Positions 15,766-21,332 of a stretch of 64,000 nt of DNA are shown one piece after another (within the stretch, counting starts at the first letter, position 1; every line of letters starts with the position of its first letter). The DNA comes from a virus. Its lineage: Duplodnaviria > Heunggongvirae > Uroviricota > Caudoviricetes. The stretch covers positions 32,001 to 96,000 of IMG/VR virus record IMGVR_UViG_2713896909_000009; one strand, given 5' to 3'. The notes beneath the pieces were generated by a model. It saw nothing but the letters and a program-made list of their open reading frames with translations, was not told where the DNA came from and ran no database searches. A program made the position numbers and the translations under genes.

Positions 15766-15914
15766 TGGTTATCCCTCAATAAAAGTGACATATTTATTAG
15801 ATTGCGGTGCCGGGTGCCTCCCGGTGACGTTAACCAGTTAACAATTAACGCCGGAATGTTTAATCATCAAGGAGGATTGTTTTAACTGTTCCGCGTGCGC
15901 TTAGCCGCATTCAC

Positions 15915-16001
15915 CACAACGGAAAGAGCATTTATGGCTCGCATCGCGGGAAAAAGCCCACGGTAGAGAGTCGAACTCTACAAATACTCTTACCTGTTGT
16001 G
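15915..16001 (-). repeat. Long imperfect hairpin unit A of a local repeat family
   Basis: Arms CACAACGGAAAGAG / CTCTTACCTGTTGTG flank about 55 nt containing a T-arm-like GAGTCGAACTC. Confidence 0.45.
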
Positions 16002-17155: not shown

Positions 17156-17288
17156 TGGTGCCGGTTAACGGATTCGAACCGCTGACCTCTGGCCTAACAT
17201 CGAATCGTTGTCATTTGACCAGCAAGGCTGTCTACCGAAGTAGAAACGATGCTTTGGCTCTCGTGCTCTCCCACTGAGCTAAACCGGC
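17156..17288 (-). tRNA. tRNA-like gene with about 57-nt insertion between D-arm and T-arm (possible interrupted or pseudo tRNA; Thr expected from P1 order)
   Basis: 5' GCCGGTT-TA-GCTCAGTGGGAGAGC and 3' GGTC-AGCGGTTCGAATCCGTT-AACCGGC-A-CCA form acceptor, D and T arms; the middle 75 nt contain a CUAC-UUCG-GUAG hairpin and no clear anticodon arm. Confidence 0.35.
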
Positions 17289-18026: not shown

Positions 18027-18054
18027 ATTACACTAATGAATTTATTAGAGCAAT
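18027..18054. promoter_or_regulatory. Bipartite C1-operator-like site (two overlapping 17-mers, opposite orientation)
   Basis: GAATTTATTAGAGCAAT (16/17) and ATTACACTAATGAATTT (14/17) overlapping the dmt stop. Confidence 0.5.
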
Positions 18055-21000
18055 ATAGCAATAACGTCATGAGCTACACCACGAGTGTTCCCCTTACAAG
18101 ACACAGAACGTCTGGCAAAAAGAGGTTCCACTCTGAAGCCACTGTCTTGGTAAAGCTCCCTGATGTTTGGCGCACCACTATTAGTAATGAGGATCTTTGC
18201 ACCTCGGCGATGAGCATCCATTAGCAGAGATACCAGGCGTTTTTGCTCTTCAAACTTAAAGTCATGACCGGAATAGTTTGTGAACCCCTCTGTATTGGGG
18301 AGCGGTTCATACGGAGGATCGCAAAAGATGACATCTCCTTCTCCGGCAGCTTCAATCACCGCTGAAAAATCACCACATACAAACTCAGAACGCCCTTCAG
18401 CACCGAGGAAGGCTTCCATCTCCTGTAATGGGAAATACGGAGTTTTATACTTCCCATAACCAACATTAAACTCACCGGCCTGGTTGTAACGCGTCAATCC
18501 GTTAAAACAATGTCGGTTCAGGAACAAAAACGCTGCTGCACGATGTAAATCATCATAGGCTTGTTTGTTAAACGCATTCCGTACTGCCAGGTATCCTTCC
18601 TGTGTGTTGTAGTCCTGGAAAAACCGATGCGCCAGAGTGATAAGTGAATGTCCCTCACGTTGCAGAGTCCTGTAAAAGTTAATCAGGTCAGCATTCACAT
18701 CATTTAGCAGATTTTCTTGATATCCGGCATTTATGAAAACAGCTCCGCCACCAACGAAAGGCTCGATCAGGCGCTTTCCGTCAGGTAAATGCCTAAAGAT
18801 TTGTTCAAGAACACCAAATTTTCCGCCGACCCATTTAAATATGGGACGGTCAAATTCTGCCGTTAGCTTAACTCTCCGTTCTGTTGCTTCATGATTTTTT
18901 GCCTGCTGATATGCAGCCTTAATAATCCGCTCACCAATCCATCGCATTACTGGTATCGCCATGCTATTGCCGATCGCTTTGTAACGCGGTCCGTCAGCTG
19001 CAAGCATCGCGGCCTCTTCTTCGCTTAAATCTGGATAGTGATTGCGAAGGTATGCCAGTTCATCTGAAGTAACTTTTTTACGCTTTTCCGTCGGGATCAA
19101 CGTATGCCCATCAGGAAAACCTTGCAGTCTTTCACATTCGACAGGGGTAAGACGGCGGACAGCTACTGCTGCGTTTCCTACGTCATAGCAAACGGCTGTT
19201 GTATTTTTGGCCATTAAAGATGGTGAAGTATTCTTAGTTGCAGCATGTTGTGTACCGCTCATACGTTCAGGAAAAGCCAATGTAACAAGATGCTCATGGC
19301 TTTCTTGCTCACGTGCCCGCAATGTACCATGCCCTTCTGACCAAAAACCTGCTCCTGTGCTGCTAAAAACTGCAAGGTCAGTGGCATCTTTAAAGTCTCT
19401 CGCCTTTACTGTCGATGCGGTTTCATCGCCAATATATTCCCCAAATGCCGCCATCCTGAAAGCGTTTACGGCTTTCGTCGATTTCATACCGGGGGTAATG
19501 TCAGCGTGTAGGCATGGATTTAGGCTTTCGCCACTGATTGCAGCGCCATTTGCAATAATGGCGGAAGCGATTTCCTTCTTTTTTCGGCTCGGCGCAATAT
19601 TCCGGCGCACGCCTTCGAACTCAAAAAGTACCGTTGCGGGATCGAGGTCTGTTCGAGCACTTGCGACAACAAACACACGTCGGCGTCGTTGTGCCACTCC
19701 GAAGTATTGGGCATCAAGGATTCTCCAGGCCACCTTTCGCTGCGGTCCATAAATACAACCACACTGCGGCCACTTTGGAGCATGGCAACCGGTTTTGCCA
19801 TCCCACCGCCAGAACGCGTTACTTTTTCCTGATTCAGGTCGATCACCTGGTTCAAATGGCGCATCTTCTCCAGCCAATCCGGCAAGGAAACATCCGAAGG
19901 CGTTATCTGCCGATGACAAGACTCCTGGGACATTTTCCCAGACGATAACGGCTGGTTTGAGAAATGACTCAGCCCGTTTGTCGTCAATTGCATTTGCAAG
20001 CTCCACATACTTTAAAGTTAGCGCGCCACGCTCATCATCAAGCCCACCACGTAATCCCGCGATACTGAATGCCTGACAGTTATGGACCACCGCACCATTG
20101 AGGATATAGGAATGATCACCTTCGACTTCTATGTTGTATACAGTATCTAGGCCTACCGATTTAAACTCTTTGACTGTTCGTAAAAGCATTCCATGAGCCA
20201 ATCTTGATTTACGTGACAATTTCTGCGGGCAGATTGTTACCTGATAATAATTCCGTTGATTTACCACGCGATCCTCGATCACTTTTTTGGGCTCAACTTC
20301 AATAAAGCTGACCGAAGAAACATAACCACAAGTCTGTGACACCCCCGCAACGCCCCAAGCAAGCGCAGGACTAACACTATTAATTCTAAATCCCGCTTTA
20401 CCACTTGGTGTCCCATCAGTATCAAGATAGCCTTGTAAAAACACATGACGCAATGGATGCGACATCACCCATGCAGGGATACGCTTAGCATGGCTTAACT
20501 CGCCAAAATGTTCATTAAGCCAATTGGCATAACACGTATCATTCAAGGTTACTTTGATGCTCCCTCGGATTTCTCTTGCCACGGAAAATATGTTTTCTGG
20601 TATGCGACAATGAAACTTTCTCAATTTCTGGCAATTTATGCAAAAAACAACCGCCTTCTTAGATTTACCTCTCCATCTCCTAATATATCCATCGCCAACA
20701 TAAGCGCCCGCAAGATACATAGCCTGTTCTTCAGACAAGAACCGAGAACAAATATCTGGAGATGCAATATTGAAATTAGTTAGAGCGCACCATTGATATC
20801 CTGGCATATCACATGCTGCTCGCCATTCCGGTTCAGACAACAACTCTCTCTTAAAATATGTGCCATTTTTCCGGGTGTTTTGGGCTTTCCACCGAACAGC
20901 CAGGAAGGGATGGTCATTGGTTGTTCTTATACCTAAAGGCTGCCCAACGGCATTAAGTAACCCCGTATTAGCTATTTTTGAACCAACTCTTTTTACTTGT

Positions 21001-21332
21001 TGTAACCGCCCGAGATGACTGACTACGTAATCGCCAGGGCAAACATCTTCTATTGGTTTATAACCATTTTTACAAAGAACCATATGCCCCGCGGTAAAAC
21101 ATGGTGTTCCCCCGACGAGCACGTCAGGGGATTCTATTTCCCCAGCCAGGACTTTTTTGGCAAGTTTAGTCATGTCGCCAAGGTTGGCGACATGGGGCCA
21201 GCGGTGCGCAAGAACGGCCGATGGAAAAGACTCGATTTCAGCAAACCACGCCGGACGCATACCCAACGGTTCCCAGGCAATACTCGCGGCTTCAATTCCA
21301 CTGCAAACAGATCCATAGCACAGCTCTTTCAC
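18045..21332 (-). CDS. dmt: Bifunctional DNA methyltransferase (N-terminal C5-cytosine domain interrupted by an intein, C-terminal Dam-like N6-adenine domain)
   Basis: ORF track 1095 aa; C5 motifs GGTPC|QAFS (split), [23 protein letters not shown]; Dam-like [19 protein letters not shown]. Confidence 0.9.
20079..21101 (-). mobile_element. Intein with LAGLIDADG homing-endonuclease domain (341 aa, residues 78-418 of Dmt)
   Basis: Starts CFTAGHMVL after GGTP, ends NGAVVHN before CQAFS; block [16 protein letters not shown] and LQGYLDTDG motifs; excision restores [12 protein letters not shown]. Confidence 0.85.

What the first reader, a model, noticed from the sequence alone, without database searches (positions are those of the whole stretch)
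20079..21101. Complete LAGLIDADG intein inserted in the catalytic PCQ motif of the Dmt-like DNA methyltransferase
The 1095-aa ORF reads ...VLVGGTP | CFTAGHMVL ... (341 aa) ... [10 protein letters not shown] | CQAFSIAG. Deleting residues 78-418 restores [12 protein letters not shown], the C5-methyltransferase motif IV whose Cys is the catalytic nucleophile, so that Cys doubles as the intein +1 residue. The insert carries Hint features (Cys1, TNDHPF block, terminal HN) and two LAGLIDADG-type motifs ([18 protein letters not shown]). The host enzyme is otherwise intact: ENVPGV, QRRRRVF, GNS motifs, then a Dam-like domain (KWVGGK, DPPY). I do not recall an intein described in P1-family dmt genes.
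Basis: partly seen in the sequence, partly recalled or inferred. Interest (0 to 1): 0.85.

Follow-up and report, generated by a model that had tools for sequence, protein, structure and literature searches.

The report
Mobile intein splitting phage P1-type methyltransferase
The DNA methyltransferase gene of this P1-like phage-plasmid is interrupted, exactly at its catalytic cysteine, by a complete self-splicing protein element (an intein) carrying its own homing endonuclease; it is a textbook kind of element, but it sits in a host gene and a bacterial group (E. coli and relatives) where I found no description of it.

Summary
The 1095-aa ORF (18045-21332, minus strand) is a P1-type Dmt (C5-cytosine plus Dam methyltransferase). 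It carries a 341-aa in-frame insert (20079-21101) between Pro77 and the catalytic Cys of motif IV. Reference P1 and P7 Dmt lack exactly these 341 residues.

The insert passes Pfam LAGLIDADG_3 and Hint_2 and the NCBIfam intein C-terminal model. Its predicted structure (pLDDT 93.8) matches PI-SceI and other endonuclease-containing inteins. All class-1 splicing residues and both endonuclease aspartates are present.

About a third of P1-type dmt genes in complete E. coli genomes carry it (152 versus 479 genomes), as does one laboratory P1 stock. Population data fit recent homing:
- The intein is 5-10 times less diverse than the adjacent extein.
- It occurs on three dmt length backgrounds, each also found empty.
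- Flank markers linked to it decay within about 200 nt.

It belongs to a family of 73 distinct inteins (25-54% identical) at the same site of C5-methyltransferases in phages, many bacterial phyla and one archaeon. Splicing and cleavage are inferred, not shown. It is a new member of a known kind, missed by public annotation and absent from the literature I could search. Interest is moderate.

The parts
18045..21332 (-). dmt precursor ORF (1095 aa plus stop). It comprises N-extein, intein and C-extein: a C5-cytosine methyltransferase followed by a Dam-type N6-adenine methyltransferase.
   Evidence: ORF list. Pfam PF00145 and PF02086, NCBIfam TIGR00571. 96% identical over its full length to dmt of phage RCS47, and 100% to E. 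albertii plasmid pEA22_2 WP_059242005.1.
21102..21332 (-). N-extein, aa 1-77: C5-methyltransferase motifs I-III, ending ...VLVGGTP, the Pro of the motif IV 'PC' dipeptide.
   Evidence: Translation. Alignment with P1 Dmt. In the in-silico spliced protein it joins the C-extein into one contiguous PF00145 match, residues 8-135 on profile positions 5-119.
20079..21101 (-). Intein: 341 aa, 38.4 kDa, pI 9.4, from Cys1 to Asn341.
   Evidence: Exactly absent from P1 and P7 Dmt. Profile matches. AlphaFold model pLDDT 93.8, with PI-SceI, TliVMA, PI-PfuI and PI-PkoII as top structural matches. Found as a 1023-nt unit in 133 PLSDB plasmids and 152 complete E. coli genomes.
20781..21101 (-). N-terminal lobe of the Hint splicing domain (intein residues 1-107). 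It includes block A (Cys1-Phe-Thr-Ala-Gly-His, 21084-21101) and the block B TxxH (TNDH, 20910-20921).
   Evidence: Hint_2 match to residues 1-49. All-beta secondary structure across residues 1-107 in the model. Cys1 and His64 are invariant, and Thr/Ser61 is kept, in 73 family members.
20226..20744 (-). Nested LAGLIDADG homing-endonuclease domain (intein residues ~120-292). Motif 1 is LAGAYVGDG (20688-20714, catalytic Asp137), motif 2 is LQGYLDTDG (20412-20438, catalytic Asp229), and Lys206 lies at 20484-20486.
   Evidence: PF14528 at 31.8 bits and PF05204 weak. Two alpha-beta-beta-alpha-beta-beta-alpha repeats in the model, with structural matches to I-SceI, I-OnuI and I-AniI. PI-PkoII aligns over both motifs. 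In the family, Asp137 is kept in 70/73, Asp229 in 72/73 and Lys206 in 73/73.
20079..20207 (-). C-terminal lobe of the Hint domain (intein residues 299-341), blocks F and G: ...[22 protein letters not shown], with penultimate His340 and terminal Asn341.
   Evidence: TIGR01443 intein_Cterm. Aligns with the C-terminus of the Spl DnaX mini-intein 7cfv. Asn341 is kept in 73/73 and His340 in 67/73; Asn323 is invariant at the block F position where Spl DnaX has Asp.
20076..20078 (-). The +1 Cys codon (ORF Cys419). It is the intein's C-extein nucleophile and, after splicing, the catalytic Cys of methyltransferase motif IV (PCQ).
   Evidence: The in-silico spliced sequence [12 protein letters not shown] aligns with AGFPCQAFSISG of M.HhaI. 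That this Cys (Cys81 in M.HhaI) is the catalytic nucleophile is established knowledge. The +1 residue is Cys in 71 of 72 family members.
18849..20075 (-). Rest of the C5-methyltransferase C-extein (motifs IV-X: ENVPGV, QRRRRVF, GNS). It includes the variable target-recognition region at about aa 583-725 (nt ~19158-19586).
   Evidence: PF00145 matches. Alignment shows that an alternative, shorter target-recognition region exists in a lab P1 stock and in P7.
18048..18848 (-). Dam-type N6-adenine methyltransferase domain (aa 829-1095; KWVGGK, DPPY).
   Evidence: TIGR00571 at 252 bits and PF02086 at 193 bits.

Best explanation
Residues 78-418 of Dmt are a canonical class-1 intein with a nested LAGLIDADG homing endonuclease, inserted between the Pro and the catalytic Cys of C5-methyltransferase motif IV.

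Splicing (inferred). The 121.6-kDa precursor is translated as one chain. Cys78 makes the N-S acyl shift, and Cys419 (the +1 residue) attacks the thioester. Asn418 then cyclises and releases a 38.4-kDa intein, and an S-N shift leaves GGTP-CQAFS. The product is an 83.2-kDa bifunctional Dmt identical in layout to phage P1 Dmt. Until splicing occurs the C5 active site cannot form. The C-terminal Dam domain is not interrupted.

Homing (inferred). The free intein acts as a site-specific endonuclease on intein-less dmt alleles around ...GGTACGCCT|TGTCAGGCATTC.... This would happen when two P1-type elements meet in one cell. Repair from the intein-bearing copy converts the empty allele and carries a short stretch of flanking sequence with it.

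Shown here: the anatomy, the fold prediction, the exact empty site, the prevalence and the population signature. Inferred: splicing itself and DNA cleavage.
For: Anatomy and identity:
- The ORF and insert are exactly as described.
- P1 and P7 Dmt lack precisely the 341 aa.
- LAGLIDADG_3, Hint_2 and intein_Cterm all score above their curated cut-offs.
- The AlphaFold model has pLDDT 93.8 and pTM 0.90; its best PDB matches are the endonuclease-containing inteins PI-SceI (E 4e-17), TliVMA, PhoVMA, PI-PfuI and PI-PkoII.
- The in-silico spliced protein gives a better, contiguous PF00145 match (126 versus 106 bits), and its PCQ aligns with that of M.HhaI.

Conservation across 73 unique inteins at this site:
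- Splicing residues: Cys1 73/73, His64 73/73, Asn341 73/73, +1 Cys 71/72.
- Endonuclease residues: Asp137 70/73, Asp229 72/73, Lys206 73/73.

The host gene stays under selection:
- Extein pN/pS is 0.19 in occupied alleles against 0.23 in empty ones.
- Most occupied genes have intact ORFs of 1013, 1095 or 1148 aa.
- Within P1-type elements there are 17 intein DNA alleles, none with a stop, and pN/pS is about 0.3.

Mobility signature:
- The intein is in 152 of 5426 complete E. coli genomes, against 479 with a P1-type dmt Dam domain.
- It occurs on three dmt length backgrounds, each of which also exists empty.
- Intein nucleotide diversity is 0.0045-0.0082, against 0.045 in the adjacent N-extein of the same alleles.
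- The base at -1 is A in 30/30 occupied and T in 66/66 empty alleles.
- Variants private to occupied alleles thin out with distance: 24/30 at -22, then 20/30, 21/30 and 20/30 at -48, -104 and -118.
- Association with intein presence falls to background beyond about 200 nt on both sides.
- Intein GC is 42.7%, against 55% and 49.5% in the flanks.
- Intein and extein identities are discordant among relatives. L125 and L129 have the intein more similar than the extein; L130-L135 show the reverse.
Against: - No experiment shows splicing or cleavage. Everything functional is inferred from sequence, a predicted structure and population patterns.
- The Hint_2 score is only just above its cut-off, and PF14890 Intein_splicing is below its own.
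- The block F position that is Asp in the Spl DnaX mini-intein is Asn here, invariantly across the family. Its effect on splicing is unknown.
- The linkage and diversity pattern could arise from a single old invasion followed by ordinary homologous recombination among P1-type plasmids, without an active endonuclease.
- Genomes in the databases are not independent samples.
- The empty alleles were collected with a pattern that fixed 20 nt downstream of the site.
- P1-type plasmids exclude one another through incompatibility and immunity (established knowledge). This limits the co-residence that homing needs.
Confidence: 0.85

Rival explanations
1. The intein still splices, but its homing endonuclease is no longer active. 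It persists because precise loss is rare and imprecise loss would destroy motif IV. It spreads only by hitch-hiking on successful P1-type plasmids and by general recombination.
For: No cleavage data exist. Within the P1-type copies the diversity is too low to show selection on the endonuclease specifically: pN/pS is about 0.3 over only 33 variant codons. No empty allele carries the A at -1, so precise loss has left no trace in this sample. The linkage decay seen needs recombination but not necessarily a double-strand break.
Against: Both catalytic aspartates, Lys206 and the glycine framework are intact here and almost invariant across 73 inteins that are only 25-54% identical. That implies long-term selection on the endonuclease. 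Occupancy of about one third of alleles, on three backgrounds, with 5-10-fold lower diversity than the neighbouring extein, suggests recent drive.
Confidence: 0.2
2. The insert does not splice. It permanently disables the C5-methyltransferase half of Dmt, and only the Dam half matters to the phage.
For: The P1 record calls the C5 activity only 'perhaps' present (annotation note). Public annotation names the protein only as a Dam-family enzyme. Two occupied alleles are pseudogenes, L090 and L093.
Against: All splicing residues are intact and conserved. The C5 extein of occupied alleles is under the same purifying selection as in empty alleles, pN/pS 0.19 versus 0.23. That would not be expected if the domain were dead.
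Confidence: 0.04
3. The intein has been co-opted as a conditional switch. Splicing, and therefore C5 methylation, is delayed or gated, for example by the redox state of the Cys1/Cys+1 pair, while the Dam domain works already in the precursor. This does not exclude the best explanation.
For: The intein separates the two residues of the catalytic PC dipeptide, so the C5 site cannot form before splicing, whereas the Dam domain is uninterrupted. Cys at both position 1 and +1 is nearly universal in the family. Conditional splicing of other inteins is described in abstracts returned (PMC6195587, PMC7360933).
Against: Nothing in the sequence data bears on splicing kinetics. The patchy distribution, with two thirds of alleles empty, argues that the phage does not need it.
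Confidence: 0.1

Closest known systems
PI-SceI (yeast VMA1 intein) and the archaeal VMA, Pol and RNR inteins PI-PfuI, PI-PkoII, TliVMA and PhoVMA
   Same: They share the two-part architecture: a Hint splicing domain split by a nested double-motif LAGLIDADG endonuclease. They also share Cys1, the TxxH block, the terminal His-Asn and a +1 Cys. They are the best structural matches to the model (Foldseek E 4e-17 to 2e-9), and PI-PkoII aligns over both LAGLIDADG motifs.
   Different: Sequence identity is only 11-16%. This intein is much smaller (341 aa against 429-537 aa for the PI-SceI, PI-PfuI and PI-PkoII chains; the TliVMA and PhoVMA chains are 361-432), so the extra DNA-recognition regions of the larger inteins are probably missing. 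The host protein is a DNA methyltransferase of a bacterial phage-plasmid. Asn replaces Asp at the conserved block F position.
Inteins in actinobacteriophage DNA methylases (mycobacteriophage DNMT-1/2, Dorothy_75 family)
   Same: They are also LAGLIDADG-type inteins in orphan phage DNA methylases. They show patchy presence, a conserved insertion site and intein-extein phylogenetic discordance indicating transfer (PMC5050341; PMC9957025).
   Different: The mycobacteriophage hosts (DNMT-1/2) are N6_N4_Mtase-type methylases of actinophages, not C5-cytosine methyltransferases; the Dorothy_75 paper does not state the methylase class. Their insertion site is therefore a different one. No sequence comparison with them was made here.
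The intein family at C5-methyltransferase motif IV found here in IMG/VR viral contigs and bacterial genomes (for example L112-L166, P0007-P0020)
   Same: Same insertion point (G-G-x-P | C...H-N | C-Q-x-F-S). Similar length (311-392 aa), the same conserved residues, and 25-54% identity to the window's intein. Exteins are confirmed as PF00145 in 5 of 6 tested.
   Different: The hosts are other methyltransferase lineages, including SPD|C..|CKHFSKAKG and SPE|C..|CTNHS types. They come from Rhizobiales, Coriobacteriales, Clostridia, Bacteroidaceae, Actinomycetota, Parcubacteria and one Desulfurococcales archaeon. I found no published name or description for this family.
Bacterial intein-like (BIL) and other Hint domains
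   Same: Same Hint fold family. There is a weak sequence match to a BIL domain, 2lwy (E 0.81).
   Different: By established knowledge, BIL domains sit in variable regions of non-conserved proteins, lack endonucleases and usually lack a +1 nucleophile. This element sits in a catalytic motif, and it has a +1 Cys, a terminal His-Asn and an endonuclease.

Membership tests
Class 1 intein (Hint splicing domain) | Nucleophile (Cys or Ser) as the first residue | tested here: met
   Cys78 of the ORF is intein Cys1. It is invariant in 73 family members.
Class 1 intein (Hint splicing domain) | Block B Thr-x-x-His | tested here: met
   TNDH at intein residues 61-64. His is kept in 73/73, and Thr/Ser in 73/73.
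Class 1 intein (Hint splicing domain) | C-terminal His-Asn followed by a Cys, Ser or Thr as the first C-extein residue | tested here: met
   ...VVHN|C. TIGR01443 scores 26-29 bits against a cut-off of 15.6.
Class 1 intein (Hint splicing domain) | In-frame insertion at a conserved site of a host protein, absent from close homologues, whose removal restores the host sequence | tested here: met
   P1 and P7 Dmt and 66 further alleles lack exactly the 1023 nt. Removal restores [12 protein letters not shown] and a contiguous PF00145 match.
Class 1 intein (Hint splicing domain) | Hint fold | tested here: met
   This rests on a predicted structure only: pLDDT 93.8, with solved inteins as top matches. 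Hint_2 scores 28.5 bits for the insert alone and 29.3 for the whole ORF, against a cut-off of 28.4.
Class 1 intein (Hint splicing domain) | Block F Asp (position F:4) as in many canonical inteins | tested here: not met
   Asn323 aligns with the Asp of the Spl DnaX mini-intein and is Asn in 73/73 family members. To my knowledge this residue is common in inteins but not universal, so I treat it as a family peculiarity and not as grounds for exclusion.
Class 1 intein (Hint splicing domain) | Protein splicing actually occurs | not testable with these tools
   The support is only indirect: extein pN/pS is 0.19 in occupied alleles against 0.23 in empty ones.
LAGLIDADG homing endonuclease (double-motif, intein-borne) | Two LAGLIDADG motifs, each ending in a catalytic acidic residue | tested here: met
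   LAGAYVGDG (Asp137) and LQGYLDTDG (Asp229). PF14528 scores 31.8 bits against a cut-off of 22.5. In the family, Asp137 is kept in 70/73 and Asp229 in 72/73.
LAGLIDADG homing endonuclease (double-motif, intein-borne) | Tandem alpha-beta-beta-alpha-beta-beta-alpha fold | tested here: met
   Secondary-structure order in the model. Structural matches to I-SceI, I-AniI, I-OnuI and PI-SceI domain II.
LAGLIDADG homing endonuclease (double-motif, intein-borne) | Cleaves the intein-less allele and drives gene conversion (homing) | tested here: inconclusive
   The population signature is consistent with homing: low intein diversity, a decaying flank-marker gradient and presence on three backgrounds. 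Cleavage itself cannot be tested here.
C5-cytosine DNA methyltransferase (PF00145), the host protein | Motifs I, IV (PCQ), VI (ENV), VIII (QRR) and X (GNS) in order | tested here: met
   PF00145 scores 126 bits on the in-silico spliced protein. It aligns with M.HhaI and M.HaeIII over motifs I-VI and VIII. The motifs are visible in the translation.
Bacterial intein-like (BIL) domain | Hint domain without an endonuclease, in a variable protein region, usually without a +1 nucleophile | tested here: not met
   An endonuclease domain is present, the insertion lies in a catalytic motif, and a +1 Cys is present.

The most novel reading that the evidence does not exclude
The intein is more than a passive parasite of dmt, and could add function in either of two ways. 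(1) It may gate the C5-methylation half of a bifunctional methyltransferase after translation. Its Cys1/Cys+1 pair would make splicing sensitive to redox or thiol state, so that adenine and cytosine methylation of phage DNA are uncoupled in time. (2) Its endonuclease may serve as a weapon between competing P1-type phage-plasmids, cutting the dmt gene of intein-less rivals in mixed infections and so excluding their markers.
Probability: 0.12. Interest if true: 0.75.

Novelty: new member of a known kind. Interest (0 to 1): 0.5.

Why it matters
- **A native intein in E. coli and its relatives.** The intein sits on natural phage-plasmids of E. coli, E. albertii, E. fergusonii, Salmonella and Shigella. 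That covers about 3% of complete E. coli genomes and a third of P1-type dmt genes. It is also in at least one laboratory P1 stock (OP279344). Splicing, homing and co-conversion could therefore be studied in the native host with the full P1 and E. coli genetic toolkit, not only in heterologous constructs.

- **A previously unnamed intein family.** The work reveals a broad intein family at the catalytic cysteine of C5-cytosine methyltransferases, in phages and in many bacterial phyla.

- **An annotation gap.** Public records call these proteins only "Dam family adenine methyltransferase". Both the intein and the C5 domain are overlooked, and protein lengths and clustering are distorted: 754-aa and 1095-aa forms sit in one 90% cluster.

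- **Practical uses.** The endonuclease would be a new compact LAGLIDADG enzyme with a defined natural target. The splicing-dependent C5 site offers a natural example of an enzyme whose active-site nucleophile is also the splicing nucleophile.

Tried and rejected
Dead ends:
- Single-sequence structure prediction failed (pLDDT 31). The 14-sequence alignment was needed.
- A sequence-only search of the PDB gave only marginal hits (best E 0.0012).
- Three papers that might mention the intein could not be used. Gilcrease & Casjens 2018 and Lobocka 2004 are not held. The supplements of Novikova 2016 are not held, and its main text never mentions methylases.
- Literature hits that looked promising were unrelated: BASEL, the Thermus phages, Azotobacter, Desulfonema and the plasmid-mobility review.

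Explanations considered and rejected:
- An ordinary conserved domain of Dmt. P1, P7 and 66 other alleles lack it exactly.
- A BIL domain. The element has a +1 Cys, a terminal His-Asn, an endonuclease and a position in a catalytic site.
- A group I or II intron, or an insertion sequence. The frame is open and continuous, the insert is 3 x 341 nt, and no transposase is present.
- An assembly artefact. Identical 1023-nt copies occur in hundreds of independent assemblies.
- A dead host gene. Extein pN/pS is 0.19.

Side observation: the odd tRNA-Thr-like sequence next to dmt got no call from ARAGORN, with or without introns allowed, and no credible Rfam match.
Full report
**1.

The window carries a 1095-aa ORF on the minus strand (18045-21332, GTG start). 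It reads ...[16 protein letters not shown]...[18 protein letters not shown]....
- Residues 78-418 correspond exactly to nt 20079-21101. I verified each sub-feature by translation.
- Removing these residues gives a 754-aa protein with [12 protein letters not shown].

**2. The genomic setting**

The window is a P1-like phage-plasmid.
- Its first 25 kb are about 97% identical to phages P1, RCS47 and Ro157c2YLVW.
- The dmt gene is 100% identical to that of Escherichia albertii plasmid pEA22_2, protein WP_059242005.1.
- Gene order around it is the P1 order: uhr, hrdC/rdgC, dmt, then tRNA genes.

**3. The insert is optional and precisely bounded**

The reference P1 Dmt (AF234172, 754 aa) aligns with the window's protein end to end, with a single gap covering exactly residues 78-418. 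P7 behaves the same way at the DNA level.
- Empty alleles read GGT ACG CCT|TGT CAG GCA.
- Occupied alleles read GGA ACA CCA|TGT TTT...CAT AAC|TGT CAG GCA.
- The insert has 42.7% GC, against 55% in the N-extein and 49.5% in the C5 C-extein (profile).

**4. The insert is an intein with a homing endonuclease**

Profile matches:

| Model | Score | Cut-off |
|---|---|---|
| Pfam LAGLIDADG_3 | 31.8 bits | 22.5 |
| Pfam Hint_2 | 28.5 (insert alone) / 29.3 (whole ORF) bits | 28.4 |
| Pfam Intein_splicing | 22 bits | 35.8 (below cut-off) |
| NCBIfam TIGR01443 intein C-terminal | 26-29 bits | 15.6 |

There are also weak hits to the intein-containing parts of RNR, GyrA, RFC, RtcB, DnaB and DnaE models.

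Structure:
- A single-sequence prediction failed.
- With a 14-sequence alignment of relatives (A2), AlphaFold gave pLDDT 93.8 and pTM 0.90.
- Foldseek against the PDB returned only endonuclease-containing inteins at the top: PI-SceI (E 4e-17), TliVMA, PhoVMA, PI-PfuI and PI-PkoII.
- Free-standing LAGLIDADG enzymes and mini-inteins followed.
- The model is all-beta at residues 1-107 and 285-341. Between them lie two alpha-beta-beta-alpha-beta-beta-alpha units.

All residues expected for class-1 splicing are present: Cys1, Thr61-x-x-His64, His340-Asn341 and the +1 Cys. So are the endonuclease residues: Asp137 and Asp229 at the ends of the two LAGLIDADG helices, and Lys206.

One peculiarity is Asn323, where the aligned Spl DnaX mini-intein has the block F Asp. 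It is Asn in every family member.

**5. The host site**

The in-silico spliced protein scores higher on PF00145 than the precursor (126 versus 106 bits), as one contiguous N-terminal match. Its [12 protein letters not shown] aligns with AGFPCQAFSISG of M.HhaI.

The Cys of that PCQ motif is the catalytic nucleophile of C5-methyltransferases (established knowledge). The intein therefore separates the Pro and Cys of the catalytic dipeptide, and the catalytic Cys is also the +1 splicing nucleophile. The Dam domain (aa 829-1095) is untouched.

**6. Prevalence**

- The 1023-nt intein occurs at 95% identity or more in 133 PLSDB plasmids of E. coli, E. albertii, E. fergusonii, Salmonella and Shigella.
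- It is in the phage records RCS47, Ro157c2YLVW and a laboratory P1 stock, OP279344. That stock was used in Argonaute studies.
- It is in 152 of 5426 complete E. coli genomes. The P1-type Dam domain is in 479, so about one third of alleles are occupied.
- Almost all copies are full length; a few are truncated.
- Public names are only "Dam family site-specific DNA-(adenine-N6)-methyltransferase". The 754-aa and 1095-aa forms share one 90% cluster.

**7. Evidence for mobility**

I compared 30 occupied and 66 empty P1-type alleles (loci plus annotated records).

(a) *Background independence.* Gene lengths fall into classes that differ by exactly 341 aa. The classes themselves differ in the target-recognition region 450 nt downstream.

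| Empty allele | Count | Occupied allele | Count |
|---|---|---|---|
| 754 aa | 29 | 1095 aa | 12 |
| 672 aa | 10 | 1013 aa | 14 |
| 807 aa | 1 | 1148 aa | 1 |

(b) *Diversity.* Nucleotide diversity of the intein is 0.0045-0.0082. In the adjacent N-extein of the same alleles it is 0.045, and in the N-extein of empty alleles 0.021.

(c) *Flank markers.*
- The base just upstream of the intein is A in 30/30 occupied and T in 66/66 empty alleles.
- Further variants found only in occupied alleles thin out with distance: 24/30 at -22, 20/30 at -48, 21/30 at -104 and 20/30 at -118.
- Downstream, occupied alleles almost always carry one haplotype that is also seen in about a third of empty alleles.

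(d) *Linkage decay.* Association with intein presence falls to background beyond about 200 nt on either side.

This is the pattern expected from gene conversion with short co-conversion tracts, that is, homing. It does not by itself prove that a double-strand break starts the process.

*Caveats:* database genomes are not independent, and the empty alleles were collected with a pattern that fixed 20 nt downstream. The three upstream third-codon positions were left free.

**8. Evidence that the host gene still works**

- Among P1-type copies there are 17 intein DNA alleles, none with a stop codon.
- Intein pN/pS is about 0.3, and no replacement touches a catalytic residue.
- The C5 exteins flanking the intein have pN/pS 0.19 in occupied alleles, against 0.23 in empty ones.
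- Carrying the intein therefore does not relax selection on the methyltransferase. This is indirect support for efficient splicing.
- Two occupied alleles (L090, L093) are pseudogenes.

**9. A wider family at the same site**

- Protein and locus searches found 47-54% identical inteins in Dmt-like methyltransferases of metagenomic viral contigs, Mannheimia and a Rhizobiales genome.
- They also found 25-36% identical ones in other C5-methyltransferases.
- Among 160 related loci, 94 (73 unique intein proteins including the window's) sit at the same position: GGxP|C...HN|CQxFSxAG, or the variants SPD|C...|CKHFSKAKG and SPE|C...|CTNHS.
- Five of six in-silico spliced exteins tested are PF00145.
- Hosts include Rhizobiales, Coriobacteriales, Clostridia, Bacteroidaceae, Bifidobacterium, Arthrobacter, Parcubacteria and one Desulfurococcales archaeon.
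- Nearly all hits of 28% identity or more are at this site. The exceptions are a decayed Mannheimia gene (47%, extein cut off after CQ), one 28% hit (L159) and an IMPDH-type intein whose 35% applies only to its best local segment (L086). The other 42 inteins in unrelated exteins are all 27% identical or less.

Conservation across the family is strong for both functions:

| Function | Residue | Kept in |
|---|---|---|
| Splicing | Cys1 | 73/73 |
| Splicing | His64 | 73/73 |
| Splicing | Asn341 | 73/73 |
| Splicing | +1 Cys | 71/72 |
| Endonuclease | Asp137 | 70/73 |
| Endonuclease | Asp229 | 72/73 |
| Endonuclease | Lys206 | 73/73 |

Intein and extein similarities are discordant. In L125 and L129 the intein is 48% and 44% identical but the extein only 38% and 29%. 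In L130-L135 the intein is 33-44% identical but the extein 51-60%. This indicates transfer between methyltransferase lineages.

**10. Mechanism**

*Shown:* the anatomy, the exact empty site, the predicted fold, residue conservation, prevalence and the recombination signature.

*Inferred:*
- The 121.6-kDa precursor splices by the standard four-step class-1 pathway, giving an 83.2-kDa Dmt and a 38.4-kDa intein (masses).
- The C5 site is inactive until splicing occurs.
- The free intein cuts empty dmt alleles around the motif IV coding sequence when two P1-type elements share a cell.
- Repair copies the intein in.

I put splicing competence at about 0.9 and current endonuclease activity at about 0.65.

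**11. Comparison with what is known**

- In kind, this is a canonical LAGLIDADG intein. Its closest structural relatives are PI-SceI and the archaeal inteins.
- The closest biological precedent is the set of inteins in actinophage DNA methylases. The mycobacteriophage examples are N6_N4-type enzymes (PMC5050341); the Dorothy_75 paper does not state the class of its methylase (PMC9957025).
- Ten full-text searches found no description of an intein in P1-family dmt or in any C5-cytosine methyltransferase.
- The large intein survey of Novikova et al. does not mention methylases in its main text.
- This is absence of evidence in an incomplete library, not proof of novelty. Automated pipelines do tag fragments as "Hint domain-containing" or "DOD-type homing endonuclease".

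**12. Verdict**

This is a new member of a known kind: a new host protein and insertion site, a large unnamed family, and a native occurrence in E. coli-group phage-plasmids.

Noticed in passing
window 17156-17288 (-): P1 and RCS47 have a 76-nt tRNA-Thr right after tRNA-Asn. Here the window has a 133-nt sequence instead. It keeps the acceptor stem, D stem and T arm, but the anticodon region is replaced by about 80 nt of unrelated sequence. ARAGORN (also with introns allowed) and Rfam do not call it. The same variant occurs at 92-100% identity in 11 PLSDB plasmids of E. albertii, E. coli and Salmonella. It could be a tRNA with an unusual insertion, another tRNA-like RNA, or a decayed gene.
   Followed up: partly
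window ~19158-19586 (-), Dmt aa ~583-725: The target-recognition region of the C5-methyltransferase half of Dmt is polymorphic among P1-type elements, with at least three length classes (754, 672 and 807 aa without the intein). A lab P1 stock and P7 carry a shorter, unrelated segment here. The cytosine-methylation specificity of P1-type phages probably differs between strains.
   Followed up: partly
L002 (AF234172, reference P1), Dmt residue 74: The reference P1 Dmt reads VLVWGTPCQ where the other three aligned Dmt proteins read VLVGGTPCQ. This Gly-to-Trp change, three residues before the catalytic Cys, reaches at most 2 of the 96 alleles surveyed and might impair C5 activity in that laboratory strain.
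   Followed up: no
L025 / L133 (Sphingopyxis sp. GW247-27LB): A 34%-identical intein at the same site has Ser, not Cys, as the +1 residue (VVHN|SQGFSLAG). After splicing the methyltransferase would have PSQ in place of PCQ and should be catalytically dead, unless this intein marks a decaying gene.
   Followed up: no
P0010, L123 / L124 (Mannheimia haemolytica): A 47%-identical intein is intact, but its C-extein stops 20 residues after the +1 Cys (CQSDKGGTVKAS...). The methyltransferase is thus decayed while the intein ORF is preserved. The protein cluster is recorded on 578 contigs.
   Followed up: no
window 20133-20135 (-), intein Asn323: The block F position that is Asp in the Spl DnaX mini-intein is Asn in all 73 inteins of this family (VYNIEV). 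This is a family signature whose effect on the splicing mechanism is unknown.
   Followed up: partly
window 18045-21332 (-) and public records: RefSeq/PGAP and UniRef name this 1095-aa protein only 'Dam family site-specific DNA-(adenine-N6)-methyltransferase'. Neither the C5-methyltransferase half nor the intein is annotated. Intein-plus and intein-minus proteins are merged in one 90%-identity cluster of 3523 members.
   Followed up: yes
L090 and L093 (IMG/VR P1-type contigs): Two intein-bearing dmt alleles are pseudogenes. One has a frameshifted N-extein and the other a nonsense codon at residue 62, while the intein sequence itself is intact.
   Followed up: no
L030-L075 and others (archaeal and CPR MAG contigs): More distant relatives of this intein (21-27% identical) sit in unrelated exteins. 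Examples are a conserved ...GMGSA|C...|CFVLDVPD site in large Woesearchaeota proteins and a ...VDYGR|C...|CVFCGLCVDACP ferredoxin-type site in Nitrososphaerota. The exteins were not identified.
   Followed up: no
window 40538-40744 (-) and 15803-15918 (-): Rfam finds the P1 immunity C4 antisense RNA and its a1/b1 target, as expected for a P1-type element. It also gives a borderline STnc100 sRNA match (47.3 bits against a gathering score of 47).
   Followed up: no
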